From IMG/VR virus record IMGVR_UViG_638341087_000022: a stretch of DNA of 43,322 bases, one strand, 5' to 3'. This document shows positions 14,610 to 43,322 of the stretch, one piece after another. How positions within the stretch are numbered: position 1 is the first letter of the stretch; the number at the start of each line of letters is the position of its first letter. The position numbers and the translations under genes are program-made. The notes below the pieces were generated by a model, which saw nothing but the letters and a program-made list of their open reading frames with translations, did no database searches and was not told the DNA's origin. The DNA comes from a virus (Duplodnaviria; Heunggongvirae; Uroviricota; Caudoviricetes).

Positions 14610-14743
14610 AGCCAGAAACGCTCGAGGAACTCCGCGCACGCTGGCAGCGCCTTCGCATTTACCGCTACCGTGGATCGGTGCTGGTGGATTACCGCATTCT
14701 TCGTAATTTTGTTCGCATCTATCATTCAGCAGGAGCCGCATAA
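14606..14743 (+). CDS. Small basic protein (45 aa), YlcG-position; not in the ORF track
   Basis: ATGA overlap with rusA and TAATG overlap with Q; same size and position as DLP12 ylcG. Confidence 0.4.
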   Translation: MKPETLEELRARWQRLRIYRYRGSVLVDYRILRNFVRIYHSAGAA

Positions 14744-15552
14744 TGAACCTCGAATCAATCGCTAAATATTTCGCGCCAAAATCACCGATGTTCAGTGACT
14801 CCTCGAGGGCGACTGCCACCGACAACCTGACCGGAACTGATGTTATGGCCGCGCTTGGACTGGTTAACGCCAAGTGTGGGTTTGGATTTGATTTGTACCT
14901 TGCAAAAATTGGCATCAGCAGCCCGGATCGGGCAATGGAGGCGCTTTATGAATCATCCGTTGAACTTTGCCGACGCTTCAAATCAGTTTCAGAACTCAAT
15001 GAAGAAATCCGTCGGCGAGTTCTCGAAATTTTGTGTGCTTTTGCATATCAGGATTATGCCCGCAGCGCGGCAAGTGTCAGACGCTGTGATTGCTGCGCTG
15101 GTAGCGGCCTCATCGAAGCTGATGTCTTCACAAACAAGGTCCAATACCCGGACGGTAAGCCTCCGGTATGGGCGAAGGCTACAAAAGGAGTGTTTCCGTC
15201 GTATTGGGAAGAATGGAAGTCTGTACGGGAGACTGCGCGGGTTATGTGCAATACCTGTAACGGCAAGGGTGTTATCAGCAATGCGTGTCGCTGTCATGGG
15301 AAAGGGAAGGTACTGGATAAGAAGGCAACTGAATTACAGGGCGTTCCGGTGATGAAAGTTTGTGAGCGGTGTACGGGCAGAGGTTATGCCAGGTTAAAAT
15401 TCTCCAATGTGTTAGAAGGTATCCGCACCACATGGGATGTGAAGAAAACGACGGCATATGAGCAAGTGCAACCGTTGTTTGAACTGCTGGTGGAGGAATG
15501 CCATCGTCAGGAGAGTTATGCAGACAGCGCCTTAAAGTCAGTTACCCGTTAG
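14743..15552 (+). CDS. Q: Late-gene antiterminator Q, lambda-type (269 aa)
   Basis: N-terminus ESIAKYFAPKSPMFSDSSRATATDNLTGTDVMAALG closely parallels lambda Q; CxxC Zn-finger pairs; C-terminal ESYADSALKSVTR parallels lambda ESIADNILNAVTR. Confidence 0.85.
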   Translation: MNLESIAKYFAPKSPMFSDSSRATATDNLTGTDVMAALGLVNAKCGFGFDLYLAKIGISSPDRAMEALYESSVELCRRFKSVSELNEEIRRRVLEILCAFAYQDYARSAASVRRCDCCAGSGLIEADVFTNKVQYPDGKPPVWAKATKGVFPSYWEEWKSVRETARVMCNTCNGKGVISNACRCHGKGKVLDKKATELQGVPVMKVCERCTGRGYARLKFSNVLEGIRTTWDVKKTTAYEQVQPLFELLVEECHRQESYADSALKSVTR

Positions 15553-15962: not shown

Positions 15963-16037
15963 GCCGGTCTAGTTCAGTGGGAGAACGGCAGATTTGTAAT
16001 CTGCGCGTCAGAGGTTCGATTCCTTTGCCCGGCACCA
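15963..16037 (+). tRNA. tRNA-Thr (anticodon UGU), phage-encoded
   Basis: Manual cloverleaf: acceptor GCCGGTC/GCCCGGC (one U6-C67 mismatch), D-arm GTTC-AGTGGGA-GAAC, anticodon arm GCAGA-TTTGTAA-TCTGC, T-arm AGAGG-TTCGATT-CCTTT, discriminator A plus CCA. Confidence 0.65.
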
Positions 16038-16114: not shown

Positions 16115-16465
16115 ATTTTGCGGAATACTTTTTTAATCGCAGAAAAGCATGTCGTTTCGTTTTGATAGGAAAAAACGATGGATAGGCAACACAAGGCTCT
16201 AATGTGCGTAAGTTTGATGGATATGATAATTACGCACAGCTTATCAACAATATTTTGCTATTAGTTAAGTTGTGAATAACTTTTTTTGTTGATAACTCTT
16301 TTTTCTGTGGATAAGTCTGTAGGTTTATTAAATTCTTATGCACAAGTAGAACGCTGATGGTCCTGTACAATCCCGTAAAAGCTTCAATACTGATGACAGC
16401 AATATAAAAACCTATCCAGTGAAGCTATTGAAAACATACAGAATTTGGTTTTCTTCGGGAAAATT

Positions 16466-17221
16466 ATGTCAGGACAGCCTGAGTCAAAAGAACAAGAACT
16501 GCTTGCAACAATCCTCGATTACTTCCAGAAGGGAGAAGTCCCGGATACAGACACTATTGCGGAAATTGAGCACGACATTGCTAAACTTCCAATAAGTGAG
16601 CGCGCACATGCGTATGCATGGCTTAATGGAACTCTCGGGCGTCACTCTGATGCAGTACGTTTATTCAAAGACGCGATGAGCTCTGGGAGTCCAACGATCG
16701 CACAAAACTACTTGGCGTATCTTTCTCGTTCGGCTCATAACTATGAGCATCGCGTTGAGTTGTTTAGAATAGTTGAGCTTTTCCCTTCACATGAACTGAG
16801 GCTTGTAGCAAGAAACGCTGCATTTTGTATCGGCAACGACAAGTTGGTTAAAAAGTTCTCCCTCAAAATGGCTGCTCTTTATGATGGCCAAGAGCGAGAG
16901 GATATAATCAATCAGGGAAATTATATGGCTGAACAGATTGTTGATTTCAAAAACGCTACCCGTCTTTCTTCTCGAGAACTAGAAGCCCTTTGCGATCAAG
17001 CTGAAGAGATTGCGAACAAGCGCGGTATTAACTGTTCAAGTGTTAGCTATTATCTTGGTGGAGATGATGACAATGCATTCATCGTTAGAGCCCAAACTGC
17101 TGATCCGCAGGTTTTAGCTGAAATGAACATGGAACTGTTGGTTTTGCTCTCAGATGATAGTTATCGGAACAGCCCTTTTACATCCTGGTTCCAAAGCGAT
17201 GAAAAAAGAGGGATTTACTGA
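16466..17221 (+). CDS. Cargo protein A, unknown function (251 aa)
   Basis: ATG at 16466 (the track start at 16445 is TTG); AT-rich; no recognised catalytic motif; first gene of a two-gene operon in the Q-to-lysis slot. Confidence 0.6.
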   Translation: MSGQPESKEQELLATILDYFQKGEVPDTDTIAEIEHDIAKLPISERAHAYAWLNGTLGRHSDAVRLFKDAMSSGSPTIAQNYLAYLSRSAHNYEHRVELFRIVELFPSHELRLVARNAAFCIGNDKLVKKFSLKMAALYDGQEREDIINQGNYMAEQIVDFKNATRLSSRELEALCDQAEEIANKRGINCSSVSYYLGGDDDNAFIVRAQTADPQVLAEMNMELLVLLSDDSYRNSPFTSWFQSDEKRGIY

Positions 17222-17625
17222 TGAGCGTATCGGGGAAAGATTTTATTGTTTTTGCTGGTAAATGCATTTCTCACAACGATGAAATCGGTTACAGAAACGC
17301 CATTGGTCGAGCGTATTATGGAGTTTATCATGAAACGCTTGATAAGCTTGAGAAATGCCCAAACAAGTCGTCACACCAAGCTGTTCGCGACTATCTTACA
17401 AATGATGCATGGTTAAAAGGAAATGAGCCGTTTGAAAAAATGAAACTCATTTCTATGGGAACAATGCTGAGACATTTGCATACCCGACGTAAATGGGCAG
17501 ATTACGAGCTTGATAGAACTTTAAGTAAGGCTGATGCGGAAGCTATATTGATAATGGCTAACAAAGCTATTGACACCCTTCAGCAGATGTATGAGCAGGT
17601 TTATCCATCCGAACCTGCTGCTTGA
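17221..17625 (+). CDS. Cargo protein B, unknown function (134 aa) with an Arg-x6-His motif
   Basis: Start overlaps the stop of A (TGATG); motif RAYYGVYH fits the HEPN-style Rx4-6H spacing, unverified; followed by an intrinsic terminator. Confidence 0.6.
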   Translation: MSVSGKDFIVFAGKCISHNDEIGYRNAIGRAYYGVYHETLDKLEKCPNKSSHQAVRDYLTNDAWLKGNEPFEKMKLISMGTMLRHLHTRRKWADYELDRTLSKADAEAILIMANKAIDTLQQMYEQVYPSEPAA

Positions 17626-17834: not shown

Positions 17835-18887
17835 ATGAAAAATACTGTAAATATAAACAGTGTTGAGTTAGTCAACGCTGATAGCCTGCAATACATCGCC
17901 ACTCTCCCTGATAACTCCATTGACCTGATAGTCACGGATCCGCCGTACTTCAAAGTGAAACCCAACGGCTGGGACAATCAGTGGAAAGGGGATGAGGATT
18001 ATCTTCGCTGGCTTGATATGTGCCTCGCACAATTCTGGCGAGTGCTTAAACCTGCTGGCAGTCTTTATCTTTTCTCCGGTCACCGCCTGGCGGCAGACAT
18101 TGAGATCATGATGCGTGAGCGGTTCAACGTCCTGAACCACATCATCTGGGCTAAACCGTCGGGCCGCTGGAATGGCTGTAATAAAGAGAGTCTGCGCTCT
18201 TACTTCCCTGCAACAGAGCGCATCCTCTTCGCTGAGCATTACCAGGGGCCGTATAAACCAAAGAGCGACGGTTACGCGGAGAAGGGAAGCGAGCTGAAGC
18301 AGCATGTAATGACTCCCCTAATTTCTTATTTCCGGGATGCACGTGAAGCGCTTGGCATAACCTCAAAACAAATAGCCGATGCGACTGGAAAGAAGAACAT
18401 GGTGTCTCACTGGTTCAGCGGTAGCCAGTGGCAATTACCGAATGAATCAGACTACCGGAATCTTCAGTCCCTTTTCACGCAGGTAGCCATCGAAAAGCAC
18501 CAGAACGGCGAACTGGCAACACCACACCACCAGCTGGTGGCTATGTGGCATTCTTTAAATCGCAAGTATTCAGAGCTGCTCGAAGAGTACAAATCGCTTC
18601 GGCGGCATTTCTCTGTTTCCGTATCCGTTCCTTATACCGACGTCTGGACACATAAAACCGTTCAGTTTTACCCAGGTAAACACCCATGCGAAAAACCCGC
18701 TGACATGTTGCGGCAGATCATCAACGCCAGCAGTAAGCCTGGTGATGTGGTGGCTGATTTCTTTATGGGGTCCGGTTCGACCGTGAAAATCGCGCTGGAA
18801 CTTGGCCGCCAGGCTATCGGCGTTGAACTCGAGGAGGACAGGTTTAGCCAGACGGTGGAGGAAATAAGGGCGTTAACAGGGGAATAA
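17835..18887 (+). CDS. DNA methyltransferase, N6-adenine/N4-cytosine type (350 aa)
   Basis: DPPY catalytic motif near the N-terminus (IVTDPPYF) and AdoMet-binding motif near the C-terminus (DFFMGSGST); no adjacent restriction gene. Confidence 0.8.
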   Translation: MKNTVNINSVELVNADSLQYIATLPDNSIDLIVTDPPYFKVKPNGWDNQWKGDEDYLRWLDMCLAQFWRVLKPAGSLYLFSGHRLAADIEIMMRERFNVLNHIIWAKPSGRWNGCNKESLRSYFPATERILFAEHYQGPYKPKSDGYAEKGSELKQHVMTPLISYFRDAREALGITSKQIADATGKKNMVSHWFSGSQWQLPNESDYRNLQSLFTQVAIEKHQNGELATPHHQLVAMWHSLNRKYSELLEEYKSLRRHFSVSVSVPYTDVWTHKTVQFYPGKHPCEKPADMLRQIINASSKPGDVVADFFMGSGSTVKIALELGRQAIGVELEEDRFSQTVEEIRALTGE

Positions 18888-18893
18888 ACGTGA

Positions 18894-18917
18894 GGTCGCT
18901 CAAGCGGCCTTTTTTAT
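18894..18917 (+). terminator. Intrinsic terminator after the methyltransferase gene
   Basis: GGTCGC-TCAA-GCGGCC followed by TTTTTT. Confidence 0.6.
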
Positions 18918-18955
18918 TACCTCAATAACACCCGCACACAGCGAGGTGAGAGACC

Positions 18956-19258
18956 ATGAAAATGAATGATTCAGGGAACATTTTCACGCAGTTCTTCGCG
19001 TGGGTAGCAGCTCTGGCGTCAGCCATTGGTTTTACCACTCAGGATATGGTGTTCATGTTCTTTGGCGCCGCTGGTCTGCTTATCTCGTTTGCCTCCTATG
19101 TCAATGGTCGCGTGGATGCCCACCGCAGGCGTAGAGAGGACGAGAAGCGAACAAAAATGGTTAATGACTACCTGAAAGGCGTTGGTGATAAACCCCTTCA
19201 CGAACGTCCTGCGGCTGCAAGCGTGGTCGTTGAGGCATTACAAAAGGAAGGTGAGTGA
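18956..19258 (+). CDS. Holin (100 aa)
   Basis: Met-Lys-Met dual-start motif, two hydrophobic helices, charged C-terminus; immediately upstream of the endolysin with an overlapping stop/start. Confidence 0.65.
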   Translation: MKMNDSGNIFTQFFAWVAALASAIGFTTQDMVFMFFGAAGLLISFASYVNGRVDAHRRRREDEKRTKMVNDYLKGVGDKPLHERPAAASVVVEALQKEGE

Positions 19259-19791
19259 TGGGATCCAGAGCAAAATTAAGTGCTGCTGTTCTGGGGTTGG
19301 TACTTGCTGGTGCGCCAGCATCCGTCATTCTCGATCAGTTTCTGAATGAGAAAGAGGGAAACAGCCTTACAGCGTACAAAGATGGCAGCGGTATCTGGAC
19401 GATTTGCCGGGGAGCTACCACGGTTGACGGCAAGCCTGTTACCCCAGGTATGAGGCTATCGCCAGAGAAATGTAATCAGGTGAACGCCAGCGAGCTGAAC
19501 AAGGCGCTGGCTTGGGTCGACCGCAATATCCAGGTACCACTGACCGAACCGCAGAAAGCGGGGATTGCCTCATTCTGCCCGTACAACATTGGTCCTGGTA
19601 AATGCTTCCCTTCTACCTTTTATAAACGCATCAACGCCGGTGATCGTAAAGGGGCATGTGAAGCAATCCGCTGGTGGATCAAAGACGGTGGCCGCGATTG
19701 CCGACTAACCAAAGGCCAGAAGAATGGCTGCTATGGTCAGGTTGAGAGACGGGACCAGGAAAGCGCGCTGGCGTGTTGGGGGTTAGATTAG
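19258..19791 (+). CDS. SAR endolysin, T4-lysozyme-like muramidase (177 aa)
   Basis: Gly/Ala-rich N-terminal signal-anchor-release segment [20 protein letters not shown]...D...T catalytic triad context [20 protein letters not shown]. Confidence 0.8.
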
Positions 19792-20252
19792 TGAGCCGAT
19801 TAACAGCAATTATCTGTGCTGTCGTTATCTGCCTGATGGTTTCCATGGCTTGGGCTATTAACCACTACCGCGGCAACGCCATCACCTACAAAGACCAGCG
19901 CGATAAAGCCATTAAGAATCTTAACCAGGCGAACGCCACCATCAAAGACATGCAGATCCGCCAGCGTGATGCAGCGGTGCTGGATGCCAAATACACGAAG
20001 GACTTAGCTGATGCTAAAAAGCAGCTTGATGATTTGCAGCGTTGTGTTCGCACTGGCAAGTGTGGGCTGCACGTCAACGCCAGATGTCCCGCGAACGGAG
20101 CGACCAGCACCGGCGGCCTGGGCGATGTTACCGGCCCCCGACTTACTGACTCCGCTGAACGGGATTATTTCACCCTCAGAGAGCGAATCGTCACAGTGAC
20201 GAAACAGGTTGGATATTTGCAGGAATACATCAAAGAGCAGTGCTTAAATTGA
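19791..20252 (+). CDS. Rz-like i-spanin
   Basis: N-terminal TM helix then coiled-coil-like periplasmic domain; contains the embedded Rz1 ORF; start uncertain (GTG at 19773 or 19791). Confidence 0.6.
20011..20199 (+). CDS. Rz1-like o-spanin lipoprotein embedded in Rz (62 aa)
   Basis: +1-frame ORF wholly inside Rz; signal peptide with lipobox-like LASVGC; proline-rich mature part. Confidence 0.65.
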
Positions 20253-20284
20253 TGTTAAATTAACCTTTTACATACGGAGGGGTT

Positions 20285-20689
20285 ATGCAAATAGATCAAG
20301 AATACCTTAAAGGTTTGCTCGAGGCTTTCGAGGCATCGGATTCACCTGATACCGATATTATTCGATTAAATGATTTAGGGTTCAATTGTGAAACTGACAC
20401 ATTTGTGTTTCATATGCGTTTGCTTGAGGATAGAGGGCTGATTATCAGGAGTGATGGAGAGCCCGGCTTTGGTGCTATTCAGTCTTTAGACGGAATGACT
20501 CACTGGGCTGTAATGCCCTTGCGATTGACCGCGATGGGGCATGACTTCTTGGATGCTCTCCGTAACAAAGAGGTTTGGGCAACATTAAAAACCGGATTCA
20601 AAGATGCCAGTATGGGCACGCTGATGACAGTTTCGAAGGAGCTGTTTAACCGAGCTCTAGCTAAGCAACTTGATAAAATGTTCGACTAA
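20285..20689 (+). CDS. Hypothetical moron protein (134 aa)
   Basis: ATG with GGAGGGG RBS; followed directly by a strong terminator; between the lysis cassette and cos. Confidence 0.5.
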   Translation: MQIDQEYLKGLLEAFEASDSPDTDIIRLNDLGFNCETDTFVFHMRLLEDRGLIIRSDGEPGFGAIQSLDGMTHWAVMPLRLTAMGHDFLDALRNKEVWATLKTGFKDASMGTLMTVSKELFNRALAKQLDKMFD

Positions 20690-20710
20690 CCGCCTACGGG
20701 CGGTTTTTTA
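20689..20710 (+). terminator. Intrinsic terminator
   Basis: ACCGCC-TACG-GGCGGT followed by TTTTTT. Confidence 0.65.
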
Positions 20711-20765
20711 TTGTCAACTTTATGAGCAAACTGATCTTAATTACTGTAACTAGGTGGTCAATGAT

Positions 20766-21407
20766 ATGGCAACGCTTAAGGACCTTTCCAGTCAGTTAAG
20801 ACAGCTGCAGAAGCAAATACCGTTTGCGACTGCCCAGGCTATGACTAAAGTGGTTCGCCAGATAGAAGCGGCCCAAAAAACAGCATTTGAGCGGAATCTG
20901 GATAATCCAACACCTTTTACAGTTAAATCGGTTGGGTCAGTTGGTGCCAGGAAAAACAGCCTTCGTGCGAAGGTGTTTGTTCGTGATACTGCTGCTGGTT
21001 ACCTTGAACCCTTCGAGTTCGGCGGAGAGCACAAGCTTAATGGTAGTGCTTTGCTTAACCCGAAAGACATAAAGCTTAATAAATACGGCAACCTGCCGCG
21101 TAATAAGCTCTCTCAGCTCAAAGCAAAGCCAAACGTATTTATTGGTGACGTGGGTGGCGTGAATGCCGTGTGGCAGAGAAAAAAGCCGAAAACCAAAAAA
21201 GGGAAGAAACGGGCAAAACGTTCTCCGAACGGCACGCGCAGAGACAAGATTAAGCAACCTGCACCAAAATTGCTCATTCGGTTTGGAGACGCGCTTCCAG
21301 TCAAACCAACGCTCGGCTATATGGACAGGGCAAACACCATGGCCAACGCATTGTTACCCTCAGCGCTGCACCAGGCGATTGCTGAGGCGATCAGCTCGGC
21401 CAGATAG
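20766..21407 (+). CDS. Hypothetical protein with a Lys/Arg-rich patch (213 aa)
   Basis: ATG at 20766 with AGGTGG RBS; basic segment KKPKTKKGKKRAKR; last gene before the cos repeats. Confidence 0.5.
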   Translation: MATLKDLSSQLRQLQKQIPFATAQAMTKVVRQIEAAQKTAFERNLDNPTPFTVKSVGSVGARKNSLRAKVFVRDTAAGYLEPFEFGGEHKLNGSALLNPKDIKLNKYGNLPRNKLSQLKAKPNVFIGDVGGVNAVWQRKKPKTKKGKKRAKRSPNGTRRDKIKQPAPKLLIRFGDALPVKPTLGYMDRANTMANALLPSALHQAIAEAISSAR

Positions 21408-21498
21408 CCCCCCCAGGGGTTTTGGGTCCTTCCTGAGCCTTTTGTAAGGCACGGGCATTGCGCGCCGCGGTGTTTTCCTAGCTACAACTTTCAGATTT

Positions 21499-21647
21499 GT
21501 GTCCCATGTCCCACCTCTGGCGATCATTACGGACACCTCGCCAGCTCTGGCTATTCCAGTTTATTCCAGTGGGACATTCTGGTGGGACATGGCAAAAATG
21601 TCCCAGGCGAATGTCCCACCCCAGAAAATGTCCCAGGTGATGTCCCA
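21499..21647. promoter_or_regulatory. cos region: cluster of ATGTCCCA repeats (candidate terminase small-subunit binding sites)
   Basis: Eight copies of ATGTCCCA / TGGGACAT in both orientations in about 150 bp, ending at the start codon of the Nu1-like gene. Confidence 0.5.
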
Positions 21648-22216
21648 TGACCACGATGAACCAGAGTCAGTACGCACAACATTCAGGTGTGGATCGCAAA
21701 ACAATTGGCCGGTGGATTAAAGCCGGGCGCTTCATTGTGATGGACGGAGACCTGATTGACGTAGAGGCCAGCGATGCGGCATTGAAGAAAAACCGCGATG
21801 GCAAAGACCCGCGCGCCTCGAACGCGAAGAAAAAGAAAACTCCCGTCGTTAGCGATAACGATGATGACGGTGATGAAATCAATAAAACTGTCCGCCAGAT
21901 AATGCTCACTGAAGGGGCAGATCTTTCGAGAGAGGAAGCGGGACGTATCCGCGAGAATTACATGGCCCTGCAGGCAAAGCTGCAGTATGAAAAAGACAGC
22001 GGCCAGCTTATTGAGCTGACAGCAGCCGAGGAGGTTTTATTCAACGCCTTTCGCCAACAGCGTGATGCCTGGCTTAACTGGCCGTCCAGGGTGGCGCCGC
22101 TAATGGCTGCTGATCTGGATGTACCGGCGGACAGGATGACAGAGGTGCTGATTGAACATGTCCACAAACACATCTCAGTCCTCGGAGAGCCAGAGTTTAA
22201 CCCGGCAGAAGATTGA
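21647..22216 (+). CDS. Terminase small subunit, Nu1-like (189 aa)
   Basis: N-terminal HTH YAQHSGVDRKTIGRWIKAG; immediately upstream of and overlapping the large terminase gene. Confidence 0.65.
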   Translation: MTTMNQSQYAQHSGVDRKTIGRWIKAGRFIVMDGDLIDVEASDAALKKNRDGKDPRASNAKKKKTPVVSDNDDDGDEINKTVRQIMLTEGADLSREEAGRIRENYMALQAKLQYEKDSGQLIELTAAEEVLFNAFRQQRDAWLNWPSRVAPLMAADLDVPADRMTEVLIEHVHKHISVLGEPEFNPAED

Positions 22217-24281
22217 GCGTCTTGAATTAAGCGTCCGCAAAGGCTGGACACCCCCGCCGCGTATCAGTGTGCCGCAGTGGGCAGATGACTATCGTAAGCT
22301 GGCAAAAGAGGCTGGGAGCACTTCGGGAAACTGGGAAACATCGACGGTAGAAATTGCCCGCGGACCGATGCTTGCCGCGACGGAGTCCGGGGTTCATATC
22401 ATCACTGTAATGTGCTGTACCCAGTTGATGAAGACAGCACTGCTGGAAAACCTTTTTGGCTATTTTGCCCACCTCGATCCTTGTCCGATACTGCTGCTGC
22501 AGCCGAAAGAAGAAGCCGCTGAACAGTTTTCGAAAGAGCGTATTAGCCCGCTGGTAAGGGTGACGCCGGTACTGCGTAAAATCATCGGTGATTCGAAACA
22601 GAAAAGCTCGAAAGAAACCATTCTTTACAAGGCATTCACTGGCGGATTTCTGGCGCTGGCGGGTGCTGGTAGCCCTGATAACCTTGCGCGTCGTCCGATT
22701 CGTGTCCTGCTGGCGGATGAAGTGGACAAGTACCCGATAACCCGCGAAGGCGATCCAATTGCGCTGGCCGAAGAGCGTACAGCGACATTTGGCCTGACCT
22801 GGCTGTCTGTACGCGCCTGTTCGCCGACGGTGGAGGATGAGAGCCGCATTGCTGACAGCTACGCCGACTCCGATCAGCGCCGGGCATCTGTGGTTTGCCC
22901 GCACTGTGGCCACCGCCAGTTCCCCGACTTTTTCAAACACGTTCAGTGGCCGAAAGAGGGAGATAAACACCTGACTAAATCGGCGATGCTCTATTGCGAA
23001 TGCTGTGGTAGTGGCTGGTCCGAAGGACAGCGCCTCAGAGCTCTGCACACTATTCGATGGCATCAGACGCGCCCATTTGAGTGCTGCGGGGAGCGGCACT
23101 CACCGCTGATGGATTATGACCTTGCCTGGCGGGCGGCAGACGAGGGCAGCGTTGAAAAGGTCTGGCAATGGTCAGAGTCGGAACGGCATGCGGTCTATCG
23201 CGCAATCTGCCCCTCCTGTGGAAAGGAGGCAGTCGATAACCACCACGCGGGGTACCAGGCATCCAAGCTTTTCAGCCCCTGGCAAAAAGATAAGCCGTCG
23301 GATATTGCGAAAAAATATATCGATGCGAAGGGCGATCCGGATAAGGAACAGGCGTGGTGGAATACCCAGATGGGGCTTCCGCACCGACCTAATCATGGGA
23401 AACAGCTCCCTGTTGATGTTCTGCTGGCGCGCCGGGAAATATTTCCGGCCGTCGTTCCGGACGGGGTGGCATTGTTAACAGCTGGAGTTGATACCCAGGA
23501 CGATCGCTTCGAAATTACGATCACCGGCTGGGGGAGAGATGAAGAATCGTGGTCGGTCGCGCATGACGTTATTTATGGTGACCTTGAGACGGAAGAACCC
23601 TGGAAGCGACTGGATGCATACCTGAAACAGATCTGGCGACGTGGTGACGGGCGCGGCCTGAATATCATGGCAACGTGCATGGACTCCGGCGGCCACCATA
23701 CGCAGAAGGTATACGAATTCGCCAAAGAGCGTCTTGGCCGTCGTGTCTGGGCAATTAAGGGGGAGTCTGCACAGGGAGGCAAACGCAATCCTGTCTGGCC
23801 GACCAAACGACCATCATCGAAAAGCAAAGCCAGTTTCCGCCCTGTCATTCTGGGGGTTAACTCAGCGAAAGACGTGATACGCGGTCGCCTGCATCTTGAG
23901 CCACCCAAACCTGGCGCCGCCGCTGCGGGTTATATGCATTTTCCTGACGATCGCGATCTCGGGTACTTCAATCAGCTGCTGGCGGAGCGACTGGTTTACA
24001 AAGTCATTTCCGGGCAGCGGTACAGTATCTGGGAAGCAATACCAGGACGAGCTAACGAAGCGCTTGACTGCCTCGTTTACAGCTATGCCGCGCTGTGCGG
24101 TCTCAAACATATGGGGTTAAAACTCAACGTCCGGGCCGCCAACCTCGAAGCCGATCCGGATAAGTTCCTGCCAGCGCCAGTTGGACAGGAAGAAAAAATC
24201 AATTACGAGCTGCCGGGTGCGGTTATTGAAGAACCAGCGCCGGTCAAACGTAAGCGAATATCGCAACTCCTGCCGAAATAA
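22158..24281 (+). CDS. Terminase large subunit, lambda gpA family
   Basis: Zn-finger-like CPHCGHRQF region and overall colinearity with lambda A; start taken at the first ATG (22158), overlapping the Nu1-like gene. Confidence 0.8.
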   Translation: MSTNTSQSSESQSLTRQKIERLELSVRKGWTPPPRISVPQWADDYRKLAKEAGSTSGNWETSTVEIARGPMLAATESGVHIITVMCCTQLMKTALLENLFGYFAHLDPCPILLLQPKEEAAEQFSKERISPLVRVTPVLRKIIGDSKQKSSKETILYKAFTGGFLALAGAGSPDNLARRPIRVLLADEVDKYPITREGDPIALAEERTATFGLTWLSVRACSPTVEDESRIADSYADSDQRRASVVCPHCGHRQFPDFFKHVQWPKEGDKHLTKSAMLYCECCGSGWSEGQRLRALHTIRWHQTRPFECCGERHSPLMDYDLAWRAADEGSVEKVWQWSESERHAVYRAICPSCGKEAVDNHHAGYQASKLFSPWQKDKPSDIAKKYIDAKGDPDKEQAWWNTQMGLPHRPNHGKQLPVDVLLARREIFPAVVPDGVALLTAGVDTQDDRFEITITGWGRDEESWSVAHDVIYGDLETEEPWKRLDAYLKQIWRRGDGRGLNIMATCMDSGGHHTQKVYEFAKERLGRRVWAIKGESAQGGKRNPVWPTKRPSSKSKASFRPVILGVNSAKDVIRGRLHLEPPKPGAAAAGYMHFPDDRDLGYFNQLLAERLVYKVISGQRYSIWEAIPGRANEALDCLVYSYAALCGLKHMGLKLNVRAANLEADPDKFLPAPVGQEEKINYELPGAVIEEPAPVKRKRISQLLPK

Positions 24282-24289
24282 GGAAAATC

Positions 24290-24553
24290 ATGTTCAACCG
24301 GAACACCAGCCTGCTTGCCGGCGCAATGACTGACGATCAGCTCAGGGATGCGCTTGCGAAAGCTCAGCAGGCGTACATTGATTTAGCAACCGGGAGCCAC
24401 GGTGTTTCGTTTTCCTATACGCAGGGAGACGGGACGCGATCAGTGTCCTATCAGCAAAGCACCCTGGCTGATCTGCTGGCCCTGATTCAACTTCTGCAGG
24501 CGCAACTGGGGATTATCTCTCGTCCCCGGAAACCAGCGAGGTTTAGATTCTGA
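24290..24553 (+). CDS. Head-tail joining protein W-like (87 aa)
   Basis: Size and position between terminase and portal; C-terminal ...RPRKPARFRF resembles lambda W. Confidence 0.55.
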   Translation: MFNRNTSLLAGAMTDDQLRDALAKAQQAYIDLATGSHGVSFSYTQGDGTRSVSYQQSTLADLLALIQLLQAQLGIISRPRKPARFRF

Positions 24554-41330: not shown

Positions 41331-41932
41331 TGGATAATGCCGTATTAAATAGCGAGCTTATTGCCACGAAGGCGGGGGATATTACTGTCTATAATTATAA
41401 TGGTGAAACACGAGAATATATTTCCACATCAACTGAATATCTTGCTGTTGGTGTCGGTATTCCGGCATGTTCCTGTTTAGATGCACCAGGAACATATAAA
41501 GCTGGTTATGCCATCTGCCGCTCTGCGGATTTAAACTCATGGGAATATGTGCCAGACCATCGCGGAGAAATCGTCTATAACACCGAAACGGGAGACGCCA
41601 AAGAAATCACAACTCCGGGTGATTACCCCGAAAATACAACCACTATCGCCCAGTTAACGCCATACGATAAATGGGATGGTGAGAAATGGGTGACCGATAC
41701 TGAGGCACAGCATTGCGCCGCAGTAGACGCGGCAGAAGCACAGCGCCAGTCACTGATTGATGCAGCAATGGCTTCCATTAGTCTGATTCAGCTGAAATTA
41801 CAGGCCGGGCGGAAACTGACGCAGGCAGAAACAACCCGGCTTAACGCTGTGCTGGATTACATTGACGCGGTGACGGCAACAGATACCAGCACCGCGCCGG
41901 ATGTCATCTGGCCTGAACTGCCGGAGGCGTAG
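41330..41932 (+). CDS. Tail fibre assembly protein (Tfa)
   Basis: Conserved C-terminus LDYIDAV...TSTAPDVIWPELPEA; directly follows the tail fibre gene. Confidence 0.75.
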   Translation: MDNAVLNSELIATKAGDITVYNYNGETREYISTSTEYLAVGVGIPACSCLDAPGTYKAGYAICRSADLNSWEYVPDHRGEIVYNTETGDAKEITTPGDYPENTTTIAQLTPYDKWDGEKWVTDTEAQHCAAVDAAEAQRQSLIDAAMASISLIQLKLQAGRKLTQAETTRLNAVLDYIDAVTATDTSTAPDVIWPELPEA

Positions 41933-42374
41933 GCCATTCAATATCTGGCGTACCGGAAGTATCGACCATTTCCAGTGCGTCCAGGTAATCCAGCCACGCG
42001 TTATACTGTACCTTTTCGGCGTCTTTCAGCCGTCCCATTGCAGCTTTTCCCGGCCATTGCTTGCTGTTCATGTACTCGTTAGCCTGGTCGATTAGCAGCT
42101 GTTTTTGTGCTTCAGCTGCTGCAACAAGTTGATCGTGCGTTGGCGGCGGAATATCACCCCAGGCAGGAAAACCATCTTCACCAGCAATGCGGATTTTCCC
42201 TTTCGGTGGTTTGCCTGAATACTCAACAAATAGTTCTTCATCAACCTCCTTAGCATTGTCAAAATTCATTCCATTTGATTCATAAATTTCCTTCATAGCT
42301 ATCGGACAGAAAGCATTTGTAGATACATCATAAAAATATTTATTCATTCTAATTATCTCCCGATAGCAATCCAT
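41904..42374 (-). CDS. Alternative tail fibre assembly protein (Tfa') on the inverted side
   Basis: C-terminus WLDYLDALEMVDTSGTPDIEWPTPP parallels Tfa; convergent with and overlapping the Tfa 3' end. Confidence 0.7.
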   Translation of the reverse strand: MDCYREIIRMNKYFYDVSTNAFCPIAMKEIYESNGMNFDNAKEVDEELFVEYSGKPPKGKIRIAGEDGFPAWGDIPPPTHDQLVAAAEAQKQLLIDQANEYMNSKQWPGKAAMGRLKDAEKVQYNAWLDYLDALEMVDTSGTPDIEWPTPPAVQAR

Positions 42375-42721
42375 CTCGCGTAGGCGAAATTCGCGTTGCC
42401 TAATGAGTTTAACAGTCTAAAAGAACTGGTGGTGTTAGCTTTTGCGGCAAAGTGAACCGGTCCGTTAGGCGCGTCAGGATTGTCATACGTGGCAACAATC
42501 TGGATAGAGCCTAAATCCGTAAACGCTATCGGGAACGGATTTGTCTGAACTTCACCAACCTGACCTGATAACGCAGTACCCCACTGAATTATTACGCCAC
42601 TGGGCAGGCGCTGCCACCCTGAACCGCTTGAAAAGCTGGTCATGTCAGGGATTTGTCCAGCACCTGTACCCACATTTTTTGTTGCTGCTGTACCCAAACC
42701 AACCTTTTTTATAACCATCAA
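42353..42721 (-). CDS. Alternative tail fibre C-terminal segment (no own start expected; fused to the constant part after inversion)
   Basis: Begins at the right inversion site with ...KKVGLGTAATKNVGTGAG, matching the NLGLGEG junction of the expressed fibre; the track start is TTG. Confidence 0.6.
   Translation of the reverse strand: MMVIKKVGLGTAATKNVGTGAGQIPDMTSFSSGSGWQRLPSGVIIQWGTALSGQVGEVQTNPFPIAFTDLGSIQIVATYDNPDAPNGPVHFAAKANTTSSFRLLNSLGNANFAYARWIAIGR
42689..42714. promoter_or_regulatory. Right inversion site (hix/gix-like), inverted relative to the left site
   Basis: Reverse complement reads AAAAAAGG-TT-GGTTTGGGTA, sharing TTGGTTTGGG with the left site. Confidence 0.4.
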
Positions 42722-42743
42722 AAATCTGGTGATGCTTCGCCGT

Positions 42744-42768
42744 TTCTCCTGTTTTCATAACAGGAGAA
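42744..42768 (+). promoter_or_regulatory. Perfect 10-bp-stem hairpin covering the invertase RBS
   Basis: TTCTCCTGTT-TTCAT-AACAGGAGAA; the AGGAGA Shine-Dalgarno of the invertase lies in the 3' arm. Confidence 0.4.
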
Positions 42769-42773
42769 ATCCC

Positions 42774-43322
42774 ATGATTTACGGTTATGCCCGAGTATCA
42801 ACAAACCACCAGGACACTGAATTGCAACTAACGGCGCTCAAGTCAGCGGGTTGTGAGAAAATTTTTGAAGAGCATGCCAGCGGGAGGAAATCGAATCGGC
42901 CGGTTCTAAAACGGCTGATCGCCACTATGCAGCCGGGGGATGAACTGGTGGTCTGGAAGCTGGACAGGATAGGCCGCAACGTTCTGCATGCGCTGTTGAT
43001 GTTCCAGCAGTTACAGGAAAAGGGTATCAACTTCCGCAGTATTACCGATGGCGTGGATCTCAAAACAGCCAGCGGCCGCTATAACTTTCGTAACATCCTT
43101 TCCGCAGCACAATATGAATCTGATCTTAATAGCGAACGTACCTTAGCAGGGCTGGCCGTAGCCAGGGCAAAAGGGCGAGTTGGTGGTCGCAGGCCTAAGT
43201 TCACGGATGAGCAATGGCGGGAAATGGGGGAGCGGATGGCAACCGGTGAATCACGACAAAGCGTATCAAAAACGTATGGAGTAGGGCTCTCAACTCTGTA
43301 TAAAAAGTTTCCAGCTAGCTGA
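42774..43322 (+). CDS. Serine DNA invertase, Hin/Gin/Pin family (182 aa)
   Basis: N-terminus MIYGYARVSTNHQD with the catalytic Ser context; C-terminal HTH; true start is the internal ATG of track ORF 42642..43322. Confidence 0.85.
   Translation: MIYGYARVSTNHQDTELQLTALKSAGCEKIFEEHASGRKSNRPVLKRLIATMQPGDELVVWKLDRIGRNVLHALLMFQQLQEKGINFRSITDGVDLKTASGRYNFRNILSAAQYESDLNSERTLAGLAVARAKGRVGGRRPKFTDEQWREMGERMATGESRQSVSKTYGVGLSTLYKKFPAS

What the first reader, a model, noticed from the sequence alone, without database searches (positions are those of the whole stretch)
20285..21407. Two unassigned genes between the lysis cassette and cos
Seen: a 134-aa ORF with a strong RBS and its own terminator (moron-like), then a 213-aa protein with a Lys/Arg-rich patch (KKPKTKKGKKRAKR) ending just before the cos repeats. 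Neither fits a lysis, packaging or structural role I can recognise. Established: this right-end region carries accessory genes such as bor and lom in lambda. Inference: accessory or lysogenic-conversion functions, or a DNA-binding packaging accessory protein.
Basis: inference. Interest (0 to 1): 0.45.

Follow-up and report, generated by a model that had tools for sequence, protein, structure and literature searches.

The report
Displaced tail-completion gene plus winged-helix moron
The two "unassigned" genes are unrelated: the 213-aa one is the phage's tail completion protein (lambda gpZ / HK97 gp10 class), encoded in an unusual but widely conserved spot just before the cos site. The 134-aa one is a sporadic winged-helix DNA-binding accessory gene of unknown role.

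Summary
Both ORFs are real and lie at the stated coordinates.

**ORF2 (20766-21407, 213 aa)** is not an accessory gene.
- It matches PHROG 1924 "minor tail protein" (E 6.6e-62).
- Relatives reach Pfam Minor_tail_Z, the lambda gpZ family.
- The usual slot for this gene, between the head-closure and tail genes, holds no related gene.
- In 146 of 150 informative related loci the homolog sits just upstream of cos/TerS/TerL.
- Its divergence tracks gpW and portal, not the terminase.
- The Lys/Arg patch is a variable, low-confidence loop that many relatives lack.

- It has low GC and its own terminator.
- It lies beside ORF2 in only 10 of 144 loci.
- Distant homologs lie beside tyrosine integrases in cassette-like gene arrays.
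- It is moron-like, and its function is unknown.

This is a new member of a known kind, with modest interest.

The parts
20276..20282 (+). Shine-Dalgarno sequence GGAGGGG of ORF1
   Evidence: Read directly from the sequence; 3 nt before ATG 20285.
20285..20689 (+). ORF1: a 134-aa DUF2513 winged-helix protein, a sporadic accessory (moron-like) gene
20688..20711 (+). Intrinsic-terminator-like hairpin plus T-run after ORF1
   Evidence: Terminator scan. RNA fold -13.9 kcal/mol, z -3.4.
20748..20753 (+). Shine-Dalgarno sequence AGGTGG of ORF2
   Evidence: Read directly from the sequence; 12 nt before ATG 20766.
20766..21407 (+). ORF2: a 213-aa tail completion protein (gpZ / HK97 gp10 class) and the last gene before cos
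21180..21266 (+). Basic loop of ORF2 (residues 139-167; 14 K+R, 1 D+E), lineage-variable and predicted with low confidence
   Evidence: pLDDT about 60 for residues 141-160. The insertion is absent in R4C, RcCronus, Ralstonia and Yersinia homologs. Length ranges 3-42 aa across 387 family members and is basic when long.
21455..21466 (+). Probable cosN: a 12-nt cohesive-end sequence GCATTGCGCGCC
   Evidence: Exact match, unique in the window. Identical to the experimentally determined BZS1 overhang (PMC7556043). The flank is homologous to the BZS1 right end.
21497..21650 (.). GTCCCA(C/T)/TGGGAC repeats in both orientations: a probable cosB, the terminase small-subunit binding sites
   Evidence: Repeat families D2, D5, D7 and I1-I9. 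They lie between cosN and the TerS start. The function is inferred.
21647..22216 (+). Terminase small subunit (context)
   Evidence: phrog_57, E 4.6e-36.
22152..24281 (+). Terminase large subunit, GpA type (context)
   Evidence: ORF. Conserved downstream of ORF2 homologs in 146 of 150 loci. The GpA-type label is from reading the sequence.
24290..24553 (+). gpW-like head-tail adaptor. Its divergence co-varies with that of ORF2.
   Evidence: PF02831, E 1.3e-14. phrog_75. Spearman rho 0.92 with ORF2 identity.
29478..30484 (+). The canonical slot for a tail completion gene. It holds a gpFII-like head-closure gene (29478-29942) and a 181-aa gene of unknown family (29939-30484), just before the sheath gene (30682). 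Neither relates to ORF2.
   Evidence: PF05354 / phrog_82 and phrog_6774. hhalign probabilities of 0.1% or lower against the ORF2 family.

Best explanation
The interval holds two functionally unrelated late-operon genes of a complete lambdoid prophage. The prophage has a lambda-like head, a Mu-like contractile tail, and is 100% identical to a prophage of E. coli NCTC9040.

**ORF2** is the phage's tail completion protein (TCP). This is the class of lambda gpZ, HK97 gp10, SPP1 gp16.1 and 80alpha gp51.
- Shown: its family, its fold, and its conserved position as the last gene before cos.
- Inferred by analogy with the solved 80alpha neck: one or a few copies sit in the lumen of the neck. The long N- and C-terminal helices would bundle with the tape-measure protein. 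The apical beta/loop domain would face the adaptor (gpW) ring and cap the last-packaged (right, cos) end of the DNA. The protein would then be needed for productive head-tail joining and correct DNA delivery.
- Inferred: the Lys/Arg-rich loop is a lineage-specific basic extension of that apical, DNA/adaptor-facing side.
- Inferred: the gene is transcribed from the Q-dependent late promoter, through the lysis genes and ORF1's terminator, before transcription crosses the joined cos site into the head genes.

**ORF1** is a stand-alone DUF2513 winged-helix protein carried as a mobile cassette. My best guess is a DNA-binding regulator, possibly dimeric, that is dispensable for virion production and acts on host or competitor DNA. 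Its target and phenotype are unknown.
For: **ORF2 is a TCP.**
- phrog_1924 'minor tail protein', E 6.6e-62, full length.
- 18 of 66 aligned relatives hit Pfam PF06763 Minor_tail_Z. P0325 scores 31.5 bits against a gathering score of 23.9, over profile positions 9-149 of 190. P0326 is sub-threshold but aligns over positions 12-185 of 190.
- hhalign of the family against lambda gpZ: probability 70%, E 3.9e-5.
- The AF2 model has pLDDT 87. It shows a long N-terminal helix (4-44), an apical beta domain, and a long C-terminal helix (185-212).
- 80alpha gp51 is a monomer in the neck lumen that caps the DNA end and binds the tape measure. About 60% of its buried surface with the neck's outer ring proteins is with the adaptor (PMC11661146).

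**ORF2 is the only TCP candidate.** The canonical slot has no related gene. No other late gene hits a TCP family.

**ORF2 is a core gene.**
- A GpA-type TerL lies downstream on the same strand in 146 of 150 informative loci, at 34-100% identity.
- Ten more contigs end within 150 nt of the gene, as expected for cos ends.
- The same placement holds in siphoviruses R4C and RcCronus and in myovirus BZS1, and in phiAP1, which its paper's abstract describes as myovirus-like (PMC8601537, PMC6836515, PMC7556043, PMC8566455).

**ORF2 co-inherits with the connector.** Its identity correlates with gpW (rho 0.92) and portal (0.94). The correlation is weaker with the physically closer TerS (0.66) and TerL (0.79). 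In 22 loci the terminase is highly divergent (TerL about 47%), consistent with replacement. Those loci keep ORF2 at about 73%, W at 69% and portal at 74%.

**Late expression.** A Q antiterminator is present. No + strand promoter was found locally.

**ORF1.** Supported (winged helix; low GC; terminator; 10 of 144 loci; one frameshifted; cassette-like arrays beside tyrosine integrases).
Against: - The window protein itself does not reach any Pfam TCP family. It has no sequence match in the PDB.
- Foldseek ranked the same PDB chain only weakly (E 4.3).
- No member of this subfamily has been shown in a virion. BZS1 gel-band mass spectrometry found 13 proteins but not p72, the homolog at 72% identity. 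It also missed the portal p04, so its sensitivity was low (PMC7556043).
- The R4C cryo-EM model lists 12 structural proteins and omits gp49. The neck maps were 6.6 A or worse and the model was built into the symmetrised one (PMC10276861).
- TCPs may not all share one location. T5 p143 sits at the tail tip (PMC11784142).
- The identity correlations use related, non-independent loci, and the proteins evolve at different intrinsic rates.
- For ORF1 there is no functional evidence at all. No promoter was detected, so expression in the lysogen is unproven.
Confidence: 0.78

Rival explanations
1. ORF2 is a DNA-packaging accessory factor. It would work with the terminase at cos, for example in cosQ/cosN end recognition or termination, analogous to lambda gpFI or the HK97 gp74 HNH protein encoded next to cos. 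It would not be a virion neck component.
For: It has a near-absolute position immediately upstream of cos/TerS/GpA-type TerL (146 of 150 loci). The stop codon is 47 nt from cosN. It carries a basic loop. It was not detected in BZS1 virion mass spectrometry (PMC7556043) or in the R4C cryo-EM model (PMC10276861).
Against: The fold and family are those of tail completion proteins. It has no cysteine and no HNH-type motif (sequence). Its divergence follows gpW and portal and survives apparent terminase replacement in 22 loci. The basic loop is absent in many family members that keep the same position.
Confidence: 0.1
2. ORF2 is an accessory or lysogenic-conversion gene like bor or lom.
For: Its location is the right-arm region, where lambda carries bor. 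Neighbouring slots do hold morons, namely ORF1 and a reverse-strand 178-aa ORF whose N-terminus looks like a signal peptide in L022-type relatives.
Against: It is conserved in essentially all relatives across alpha-, beta- and gamma-proteobacterial phages. It has no signal peptide or membrane segment in the sequence (my reading of the sequence). It has the TCP fold. No promoter of its own was found.
Confidence: 0.02
3. ORF1 is part of an anti-phage defence, superinfection-exclusion or anti-defence function, rather than a plain transcription regulator.
Against: There is no PADLOC match. There is no enzymatic or effector domain in 134 aa and no partner gene conserved with it. The only literature mention of DUF2513 is incidental.
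Confidence: 0.2

Closest known systems
Lambda gpZ (minor tail protein Z, Pfam PF06763), the prototype tail completion protein
   Same: ORF2 is of similar length (213 aa against 192 aa) and also comes from a cos-packaging phage with gpW/gpFII-type connectors. Family members reach the PF06763 profile over nearly its full length. hhalign aligns the N-terminal helix region. Both have an enlarged apical beta domain between the terminal helices (the description of the gpZ model is in PMC11661146).
   Different: There is no direct pairwise similarity, and the window protein is below Pfam detection. The lambda Z gene sits between FII and U, whereas this gene is the last one before cos. The tail here is contractile and Mu-like. 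ORF2 carries an extra 29-aa basic loop.
80alpha/SaPI1 gp51 (PDB 9mu2 chain P), HK97 gp10 family; the first TCP solved in situ
   Different: Sequence identity is 11%. gp51 is about half the size and comes from a headful-packaging siphovirus of Gram-positive hosts. It caps a blunt DNA end, whereas here the end would carry a 12-nt 5' overhang. Its gene is in the canonical position.
Mu gpG and P2 gpS (TCPs of contractile-tailed phages)
   Same: Both are myovirus TCPs whose genes have lost the canonical 'just before terminator and tube' context (PMC11099176, Table 1).
   Different: Those genes remain inside the structural module. ORF2 lies on the other side of cos from all the other structural genes. 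No Pfam match to those families was seen.
DUF2513 (PF10711) and MarR/PadR/HxlR-type winged-helix regulators (for ORF1)
   Same: ORF1 passes the PF10711 gathering score. It has a winged-helix core with C-terminal helices, like small dimeric repressors.
   Different: It has no ligand-binding domain and no identified operator or target. Sequence identity to the solved regulators is only 10-23%. It is carried as a single-gene cassette.

Membership tests
Tail completion protein (TCP / Ne1; gpZ, HK97 gp10, SPP1 gp16.1, 80alpha gp51) | The fold: a long N-terminal helix, an apical loop/beta region and a long C-terminal helix, superposable on a solved TCP | tested here: met
Tail completion protein (TCP / Ne1) | Sequence-profile membership in a curated TCP family (PF06763 Minor_tail_Z or PF04883 HK97-gp10_like) above the gathering score | tested here: not met
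   The window protein has no hit. The link is indirect. 18 of 66 relatives hit PF06763 at E <= 0.1. Of the 10 relatives rescanned, only P0325 exceeded the cut-off (31.5 against 23.9 bits). hhalign against gpZ gives probability 70%.
Tail completion protein (TCP / Ne1) | Gene located after the head-closure gene and just before the tail terminator and tube genes (the criterion used by Lopes et al. 2014 and PMC11099176) | tested here: not met
   The gene lies upstream of cos and TerS, about 8 kb before the gpFII-like gene. This displaced position is itself conserved. The literature notes that the context is also lost in P2 and Mu (PMC11099176).
Tail completion protein (TCP / Ne1) | Present in virions or tails at low copy number | not testable with these tools
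   Published data on homologs are negative but insensitive. BZS1 gel-band mass spectrometry also lacks the portal (PMC7556043). [quoted passage not shown]
Tail completion protein (TCP / Ne1) | Loss gives normal-looking heads and tails but defective joining or non-infectious particles | not testable with these tools
This requires genetics.
PHROG 1924 (annotated 'minor tail protein') | Full-length profile match | tested here: met
   E 6.6e-62; residues 2-213 aligned to profile positions 8-237 of 237.
DUF2513 (PF10711), for ORF1 | Profile match above the gathering score | tested here: met
   41.1 bits against 29.6; residues 5-110. All 115 homologs carry PF10711.
Moron (an autonomous accessory gene in a prophage), for ORF1 | Variable presence among otherwise syntenic relatives, and atypical base composition | tested here: met
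   Present in 10 of 144 loci, one frameshifted. GC is 0.40-0.46 against 0.50-0.56 in the flanks.
Moron, for ORF1 | Its own terminator | tested here: met
   Hairpin plus T-run at 20688-20711.
Moron, for ORF1 | Its own promoter that allows expression from the repressed prophage | tested here: inconclusive
   No + strand sigma-70 consensus lies in 18800-22300. Only 32 nt separate the Rz stop from the ORF1 start. A weak extended -10-like TGTTAAATT is visible by eye but is unvalidated.
Known anti-phage defence proteins (PADLOC-DB) | A match to any model | tested here: not met
   ORF1 has none. ORF2 has only a spurious REase_II hit at E 0.041.

The most novel reading that the evidence does not exclude
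ORF2-type proteins form a large TCP clade (8157 clusters at 50% identity) that is inherited with the lambda-type head/connector module rather than with the tail. It occurs with both non-contractile and contractile tails. On this reading it acts from the head/DNA side as a cap for the cohesive right DNA end, using its recurrent basic loop on the terminal duplex or the 12-nt overhang. It would then be a 'DNA-end plug' tied to the cos-type head/connector module, rather than a tail-assembly protein in the lambda gpZ sense.
Probability: 0.18. Interest if true: 0.55.

Novelty: new member of a known kind. Interest (0 to 1): 0.3.

Why it matters
**Annotation.** RefSeq calls ORF2 'hypothetical protein' in the E. 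coli genomes listed among the 58 that match this region, and GenBank does the same in phages phiNP, BZS1 and phiAP1. It can now be labelled a tail completion protein. This fills an apparent gap in the neck gene set of this lambda-head/Mu-tail phage group.

**Biology.** TCPs are under active study, and the location of lambda gpZ is still unresolved (PMC11661146, PMC11784142). This clade offers three testable points:
- A gene position rule opposite to the one used to find TCPs.
- Co-variation with gpW and portal across apparent terminase replacements. This independently supports the TCP-adaptor contact seen in 80alpha.
- A recurrent basic loop that could be probed for contact with the cohesive end.

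ORF1 adds one more uncharacterised, mobile winged-helix cassette to the prophage cargo list. None of this is categorically new.

Tried and rejected
- **PDB sequence searches.** Neither ORF2 alone nor its 66-sequence profile found anything. ORF1 gave only chance IlvA hits.
- **Weak family hits judged spurious.** The Pfam hits of ORF2 to MIF and Tas3 (E above 0.1) and the PADLOC REase_II hit (E 0.041) are below cut-offs and inconsistent with the fold.
- **NCBIfam.** No hit for either protein.
- **HNH idea.** I considered an HK97 gp74-like HNH endonuclease, which is a known occupant of the position next to cos. ORF2 has no cysteine and no HNH motif and a different fold, so I rejected it.
- **The canonical slot.** I tested whether the 136-aa and 181-aa genes there are the real TCP. 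hhalign probabilities against the ORF2 family are 0.04% and 0.15%. The 181-aa protein has no PDB sequence match. I assume it is the tail terminator, from its position only.
- **Virion evidence for homologs.**
  - The R4C cryo-EM paper does not list gp49.
  - The marine-phage proteomics paper has no held supplement.
  - BZS1 mass spectrometry did not detect p72.
  - The RcCronus papers give no basis for their 'minor tail protein' label.
- **DUF2513 literature.** One incidental mention only.
- **Rfam.** No RNA family lies in the interval.
- **Exceptions to the synteny.** Two of the four exceptions have only 1.6-2.2 kb downstream. I examined one of the others, L068. It looks like a deleted prophage in which ORF2 is followed by tail genes.

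Full report
**1. What is there**

The window is a complete lambdoid prophage. Its gene order is:
- integrase (1-1194), RecT, a RecE-like exonuclease, O, P, and Q antiterminator (14743-15552);
- a tRNA, two genes of unknown function, and a Dam-type methylase;
- holin, endolysin and Rz/Rz1;
- ORF1, ORF2 and cos;
- TerS, a GpA-type TerL, gpW, portal, protease, scaffold, a gpD-like decoration protein, major capsid and a gpFII-like protein;
- a 181-aa protein of unknown family, sheath, tube, and a Mu-like baseplate (gpP, gp45, gp46, J, gp48);
- fibre, fibre-assembly protein and an invertase.

It is 100% identical over the interval to a prophage of E. coli NCTC9040. Matches occur in 58 of 5426 complete E. 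coli genomes. In the records listed, the two genes are annotated 'DUF2513 domain-containing protein' and 'hypothetical protein'.

- ORF1 is 20285-20689, with a GGAGGGG ribosome-binding site. A terminator-like hairpin lies at 20688-20711. It folds at -13.9 kcal/mol, z -3.4.
- ORF2 is 213 aa from ATG 20766. The ribosome-binding site and the homolog N-termini favour this start over GTG 20754. It ends at 21407.
- The patch KKPKTKKGKKRAKR is residues 139-152.

**2. The cos site**

BZS1 is a Serratia myovirus whose p72 is 72% identical to ORF2. Its 12-nt 5' cohesive end was determined experimentally as GCATTGCGCGCC (PMC7556043). That exact sequence occurs once in the window, at 21455-21466. It sits in a flank homologous to the BZS1 right end.

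ORF2 therefore stops 47 nt from the right end of the virion chromosome. They are best read as cosB-type small-terminase binding sites, which is an inference.

**3. ORF2 is a tail completion protein**

Sequence evidence:
- A full-length match to phrog_1924 'minor tail protein', E 6.6e-62.
- The window protein alone hits no Pfam, NCBIfam or PDB sequence.
- I built a 66-sequence alignment from two homolog searches. Of its members, 18 hit Pfam PF06763 Minor_tail_Z.
- One relative exceeds the gathering score: P0325, 31.5 against 23.9 bits, over profile positions 9-149 of 190. Another aligns over positions 12-185 of 190.
- hhalign of the family against lambda gpZ gives probability 70%, E 3.9e-5, over the N-terminal helix.
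- One source names a relative 'minor tail protein Z' (P0104) and another names one 'HK97 gp10 family' (P0328).

Structural evidence:
- The AlphaFold2 model has pLDDT 87 and pTM 0.73. It has a 40-residue N-terminal helix, an apical beta domain and a 28-residue C-terminal helix.
- Foldseek saw the same chain only weakly.

What that class does, from the literature:
- In 80alpha, a gp51 monomer sits in the neck lumen. It caps the end of the packaged DNA with its apical loop. It forms a beta-sheet and helical bundle with the three tape-measure chains. Most of its contact with the neck's outer ring proteins is with the adaptor ring (PMC11661146).
- SPP1 gp16.1 assists tail-to-head joining and is needed for correct routing of DNA into the cell (PMC11099176).
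- Lambda Z-minus particles assemble but are about 500-fold less infectious (cited in PMC11661146).

I infer the same role here. That step is by analogy and is not shown.

**4. An unusual but conserved gene position**

TCP genes normally sit between the head-closure gene and the terminator and tube genes. That context has been used to identify them, and it is known to be lost in P2 and Mu (PMC11099176, PMC11784142).

In this window the slot holds only a gpFII-like gene and a 181-aa gene of unknown family. Neither these nor the 136-aa gene just upstream relate to the ORF2 family. No other late gene hits a TCP family. ORF2 is therefore the only TCP candidate in the phage.

Its position before cos is conserved.
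- I collected 166 loci, partly redundant, from annotated phages and two scans of viral contigs.
- Of the 150 with enough downstream sequence, 146 have a GpA-type TerL downstream on the same strand. The median gap is 833 nt, room for cos and TerS.
- In 10 further contigs the sequence ends within 150 nt of the gene, as expected for genomes assembled from cos to cos.
- RcCronus has 13-nt cohesive ends and R4C has 14-nt ones. In both, the homolog is the last gene of the linear genome (PMC8601537, PMC6836515).
- The family is large: 8157 clusters at 50% identity with E <= 1e-3.
- It is found with non-contractile tails (R4C, RcCronus) and contractile tails (this window, BZS1). phiAP1's paper describes its phages as myovirus-like (PMC8566455, abstract).

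**5. Virion component or terminase helper?**

The position next to cos and the basic patch make a packaging role a fair rival. Two results argue against it.
- **Co-variation.** Across loci, ORF2 identity to the window protein correlates with gpW (Spearman 0.92) and portal (0.94). The correlation is weaker with the physically nearer TerS (0.66) and TerL (0.79). In 22 loci the terminase is only about 47% identical, consistent with replacement. Those loci keep ORF2 at about 73%, gpW at 69% and portal at 74%. This matches the TCP-adaptor contact seen in 80alpha. The caveats are that the loci are not phylogenetically independent and that the proteins evolve at different rates.
- **The basic loop is not a family feature.** It is an insertion of 3-42 aa at one position of the apical domain. 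It is short in most alpha- and beta-proteobacterial members. When long, it is consistently basic. In the enterobacterial set the median is 29 aa, with 15 K+R and 1 D+E. It is the low-confidence part of the model.

My inference is that the loop extends the positively charged, DNA/adaptor-facing side.

The negative virion data exist but are weak.
- BZS1 gel-band mass spectrometry found 13 proteins, without p72 and also without the portal (PMC7556043).
- The R4C cryo-EM model omits gp49. Its stopper-terminator map was 6.6 A and its asymmetric portal-vertex map 11.5 A (PMC10276861).

**6. ORF1 is a separate, sporadic winged-helix cassette**

- It passes PF10711 DUF2513 (41.1 against 29.6 bits) and matches phrog_585, of unknown function.
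- It has no PADLOC, NCBIfam or PDB sequence match.
- The AF2 model (pLDDT 91.6) is a winged helix-turn-helix with an extended wing and three C-terminal helices.
- GC is 0.40-0.46 against 0.50-0.56 around it.
- It lies directly upstream of ORF2 in only 10 of 144 loci. One of those copies is frameshifted (L014). A diverged copy lies 2.3 kb upstream in a Yersinia phage.
- It stays about 100% identical in loci where ORF2 is only 90% identical, which suggests a mosaic joint in the ORF1-ORF2 intergenic region.
- Homologs at 47-53% identity lie beside divergently oriented tyrosine integrases. In L168, and in L171 which has no integrase in the fetched stretch, they sit in arrays of short same-strand genes. 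I read the L168 array as integron-like.
- Other relatives carry different cargo in the same slot. Some carry a reverse-strand 178-aa ORF, whose N-terminus looks like a signal peptide, between ORF2 and cos.

ORF1 therefore fits 'moron-like accessory gene', with the reservation that no promoter was detected. As written it would be expressed with the late operon, and Q-modified polymerase would read through its terminator (inference). Its target is unknown. I favour a DNA-binding regulator and give about 0.2 to a defence or anti-defence role.

**7. Verdict**

Novelty is limited. PHROGs and a few GenBank records already say 'minor tail protein'. The added value has three parts:
- the structural link to a solved TCP;
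- the rule that this large clade is encoded as the last gene before cos;
- its co-inheritance with the connector rather than with the terminase.

Interest is 0.3.

Noticed in passing
window 21455-21466: GCATTGCGCGCC is identical to the experimentally determined 12-nt cohesive end of Serratia phage BZS1, and the upstream flank is homologous. It is the likely cosN, so the virion right end is 47 nt after the ORF2 stop.
   Followed up: yes
window 21497-21650: There are at least eight GTCCCA(C/T)/TGGGAC(A) motifs in both orientations, some with 30-nt spacing. They run from just after cosN into the TerS start codon and are probably cosB-like TerS binding sites.
   Followed up: partly
window 16445-17625: Two adjacent genes (258 aa and 134 aa; phrog_17809 and phrog_5176, both of unknown function) lie between the Q/tRNA region and the methylase. 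Neither has a Pfam or PADLOC hit. They may be another cargo pair.
   Followed up: partly
window 15963-16034: A tRNA gene (Rfam RF00005, 58.8 bits) lies downstream of the Q antiterminator gene. I did not determine the anticodon.
   Followed up: no
window 29939-30484 and 29168-29578: A 181-aa protein (phrog_6774, unknown) occupies the place where a tail terminator is expected, just before the sheath gene. A 136-aa ORF (phrog_24496, unknown) lies between the capsid gene and the gpFII-like gene. Neither has a Pfam hit, and the 181-aa protein has no PDB sequence match.
   Followed up: partly
L022 6650-7186 (minus strand); same arrangement likely in L025-L033: Relatives with ORF2 at about 90% identity carry a reverse-oriented 178-aa ORF between ORF2 and cos. 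Its hydrophobic N-terminus looks like a signal peptide, and it matches phrog_19473 (unknown). It looks like a second moron slot that is empty in this window.
   Followed up: partly
L068 6001-12687: Here the ORF2 homolog (61% identity) is followed after about 0.8 kb by sheath-like and baseplate genes, with no terminase or head genes. It looks like a deleted or defective prophage that kept ORF2 with the tail genes.
   Followed up: partly
L014 5500-5921: The DUF2513 gene is split into two ORFs (a frameshift) in an otherwise near-identical prophage. This fits ORF1 being dispensable.
   Followed up: no
L168 3679-10299, L170 464-2196, L171: DUF2513 homologs (47-53% identity) lie beside divergently oriented tyrosine integrases. 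In L168 and L171 they sit in arrays of short, same-strand, mostly unannotated genes. The L168 array looks like a chromosomal integron cassette array.
   Followed up: partly
window 41904-43322: A serine invertase (Resolvase plus HTH_7) follows the tail-fibre and fibre-assembly genes, with two reverse-strand ORFs (41904-42374 and 42353-42721) in between. This suggests a Mu G-segment-like invertible host-range switch.
   Followed up: no
Phage R4C (from PMC10276861; right end of the genome fetched as L004): In R4C the tail terminator was assigned to gene 018. By their gene numbers the stopper (009) and the tube (010) are adjacent, so I infer that no gene lies between them. Both the terminator and the TCP-like gene (049) would then be displaced from the canonical neck-gene order.
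   Followed up: no
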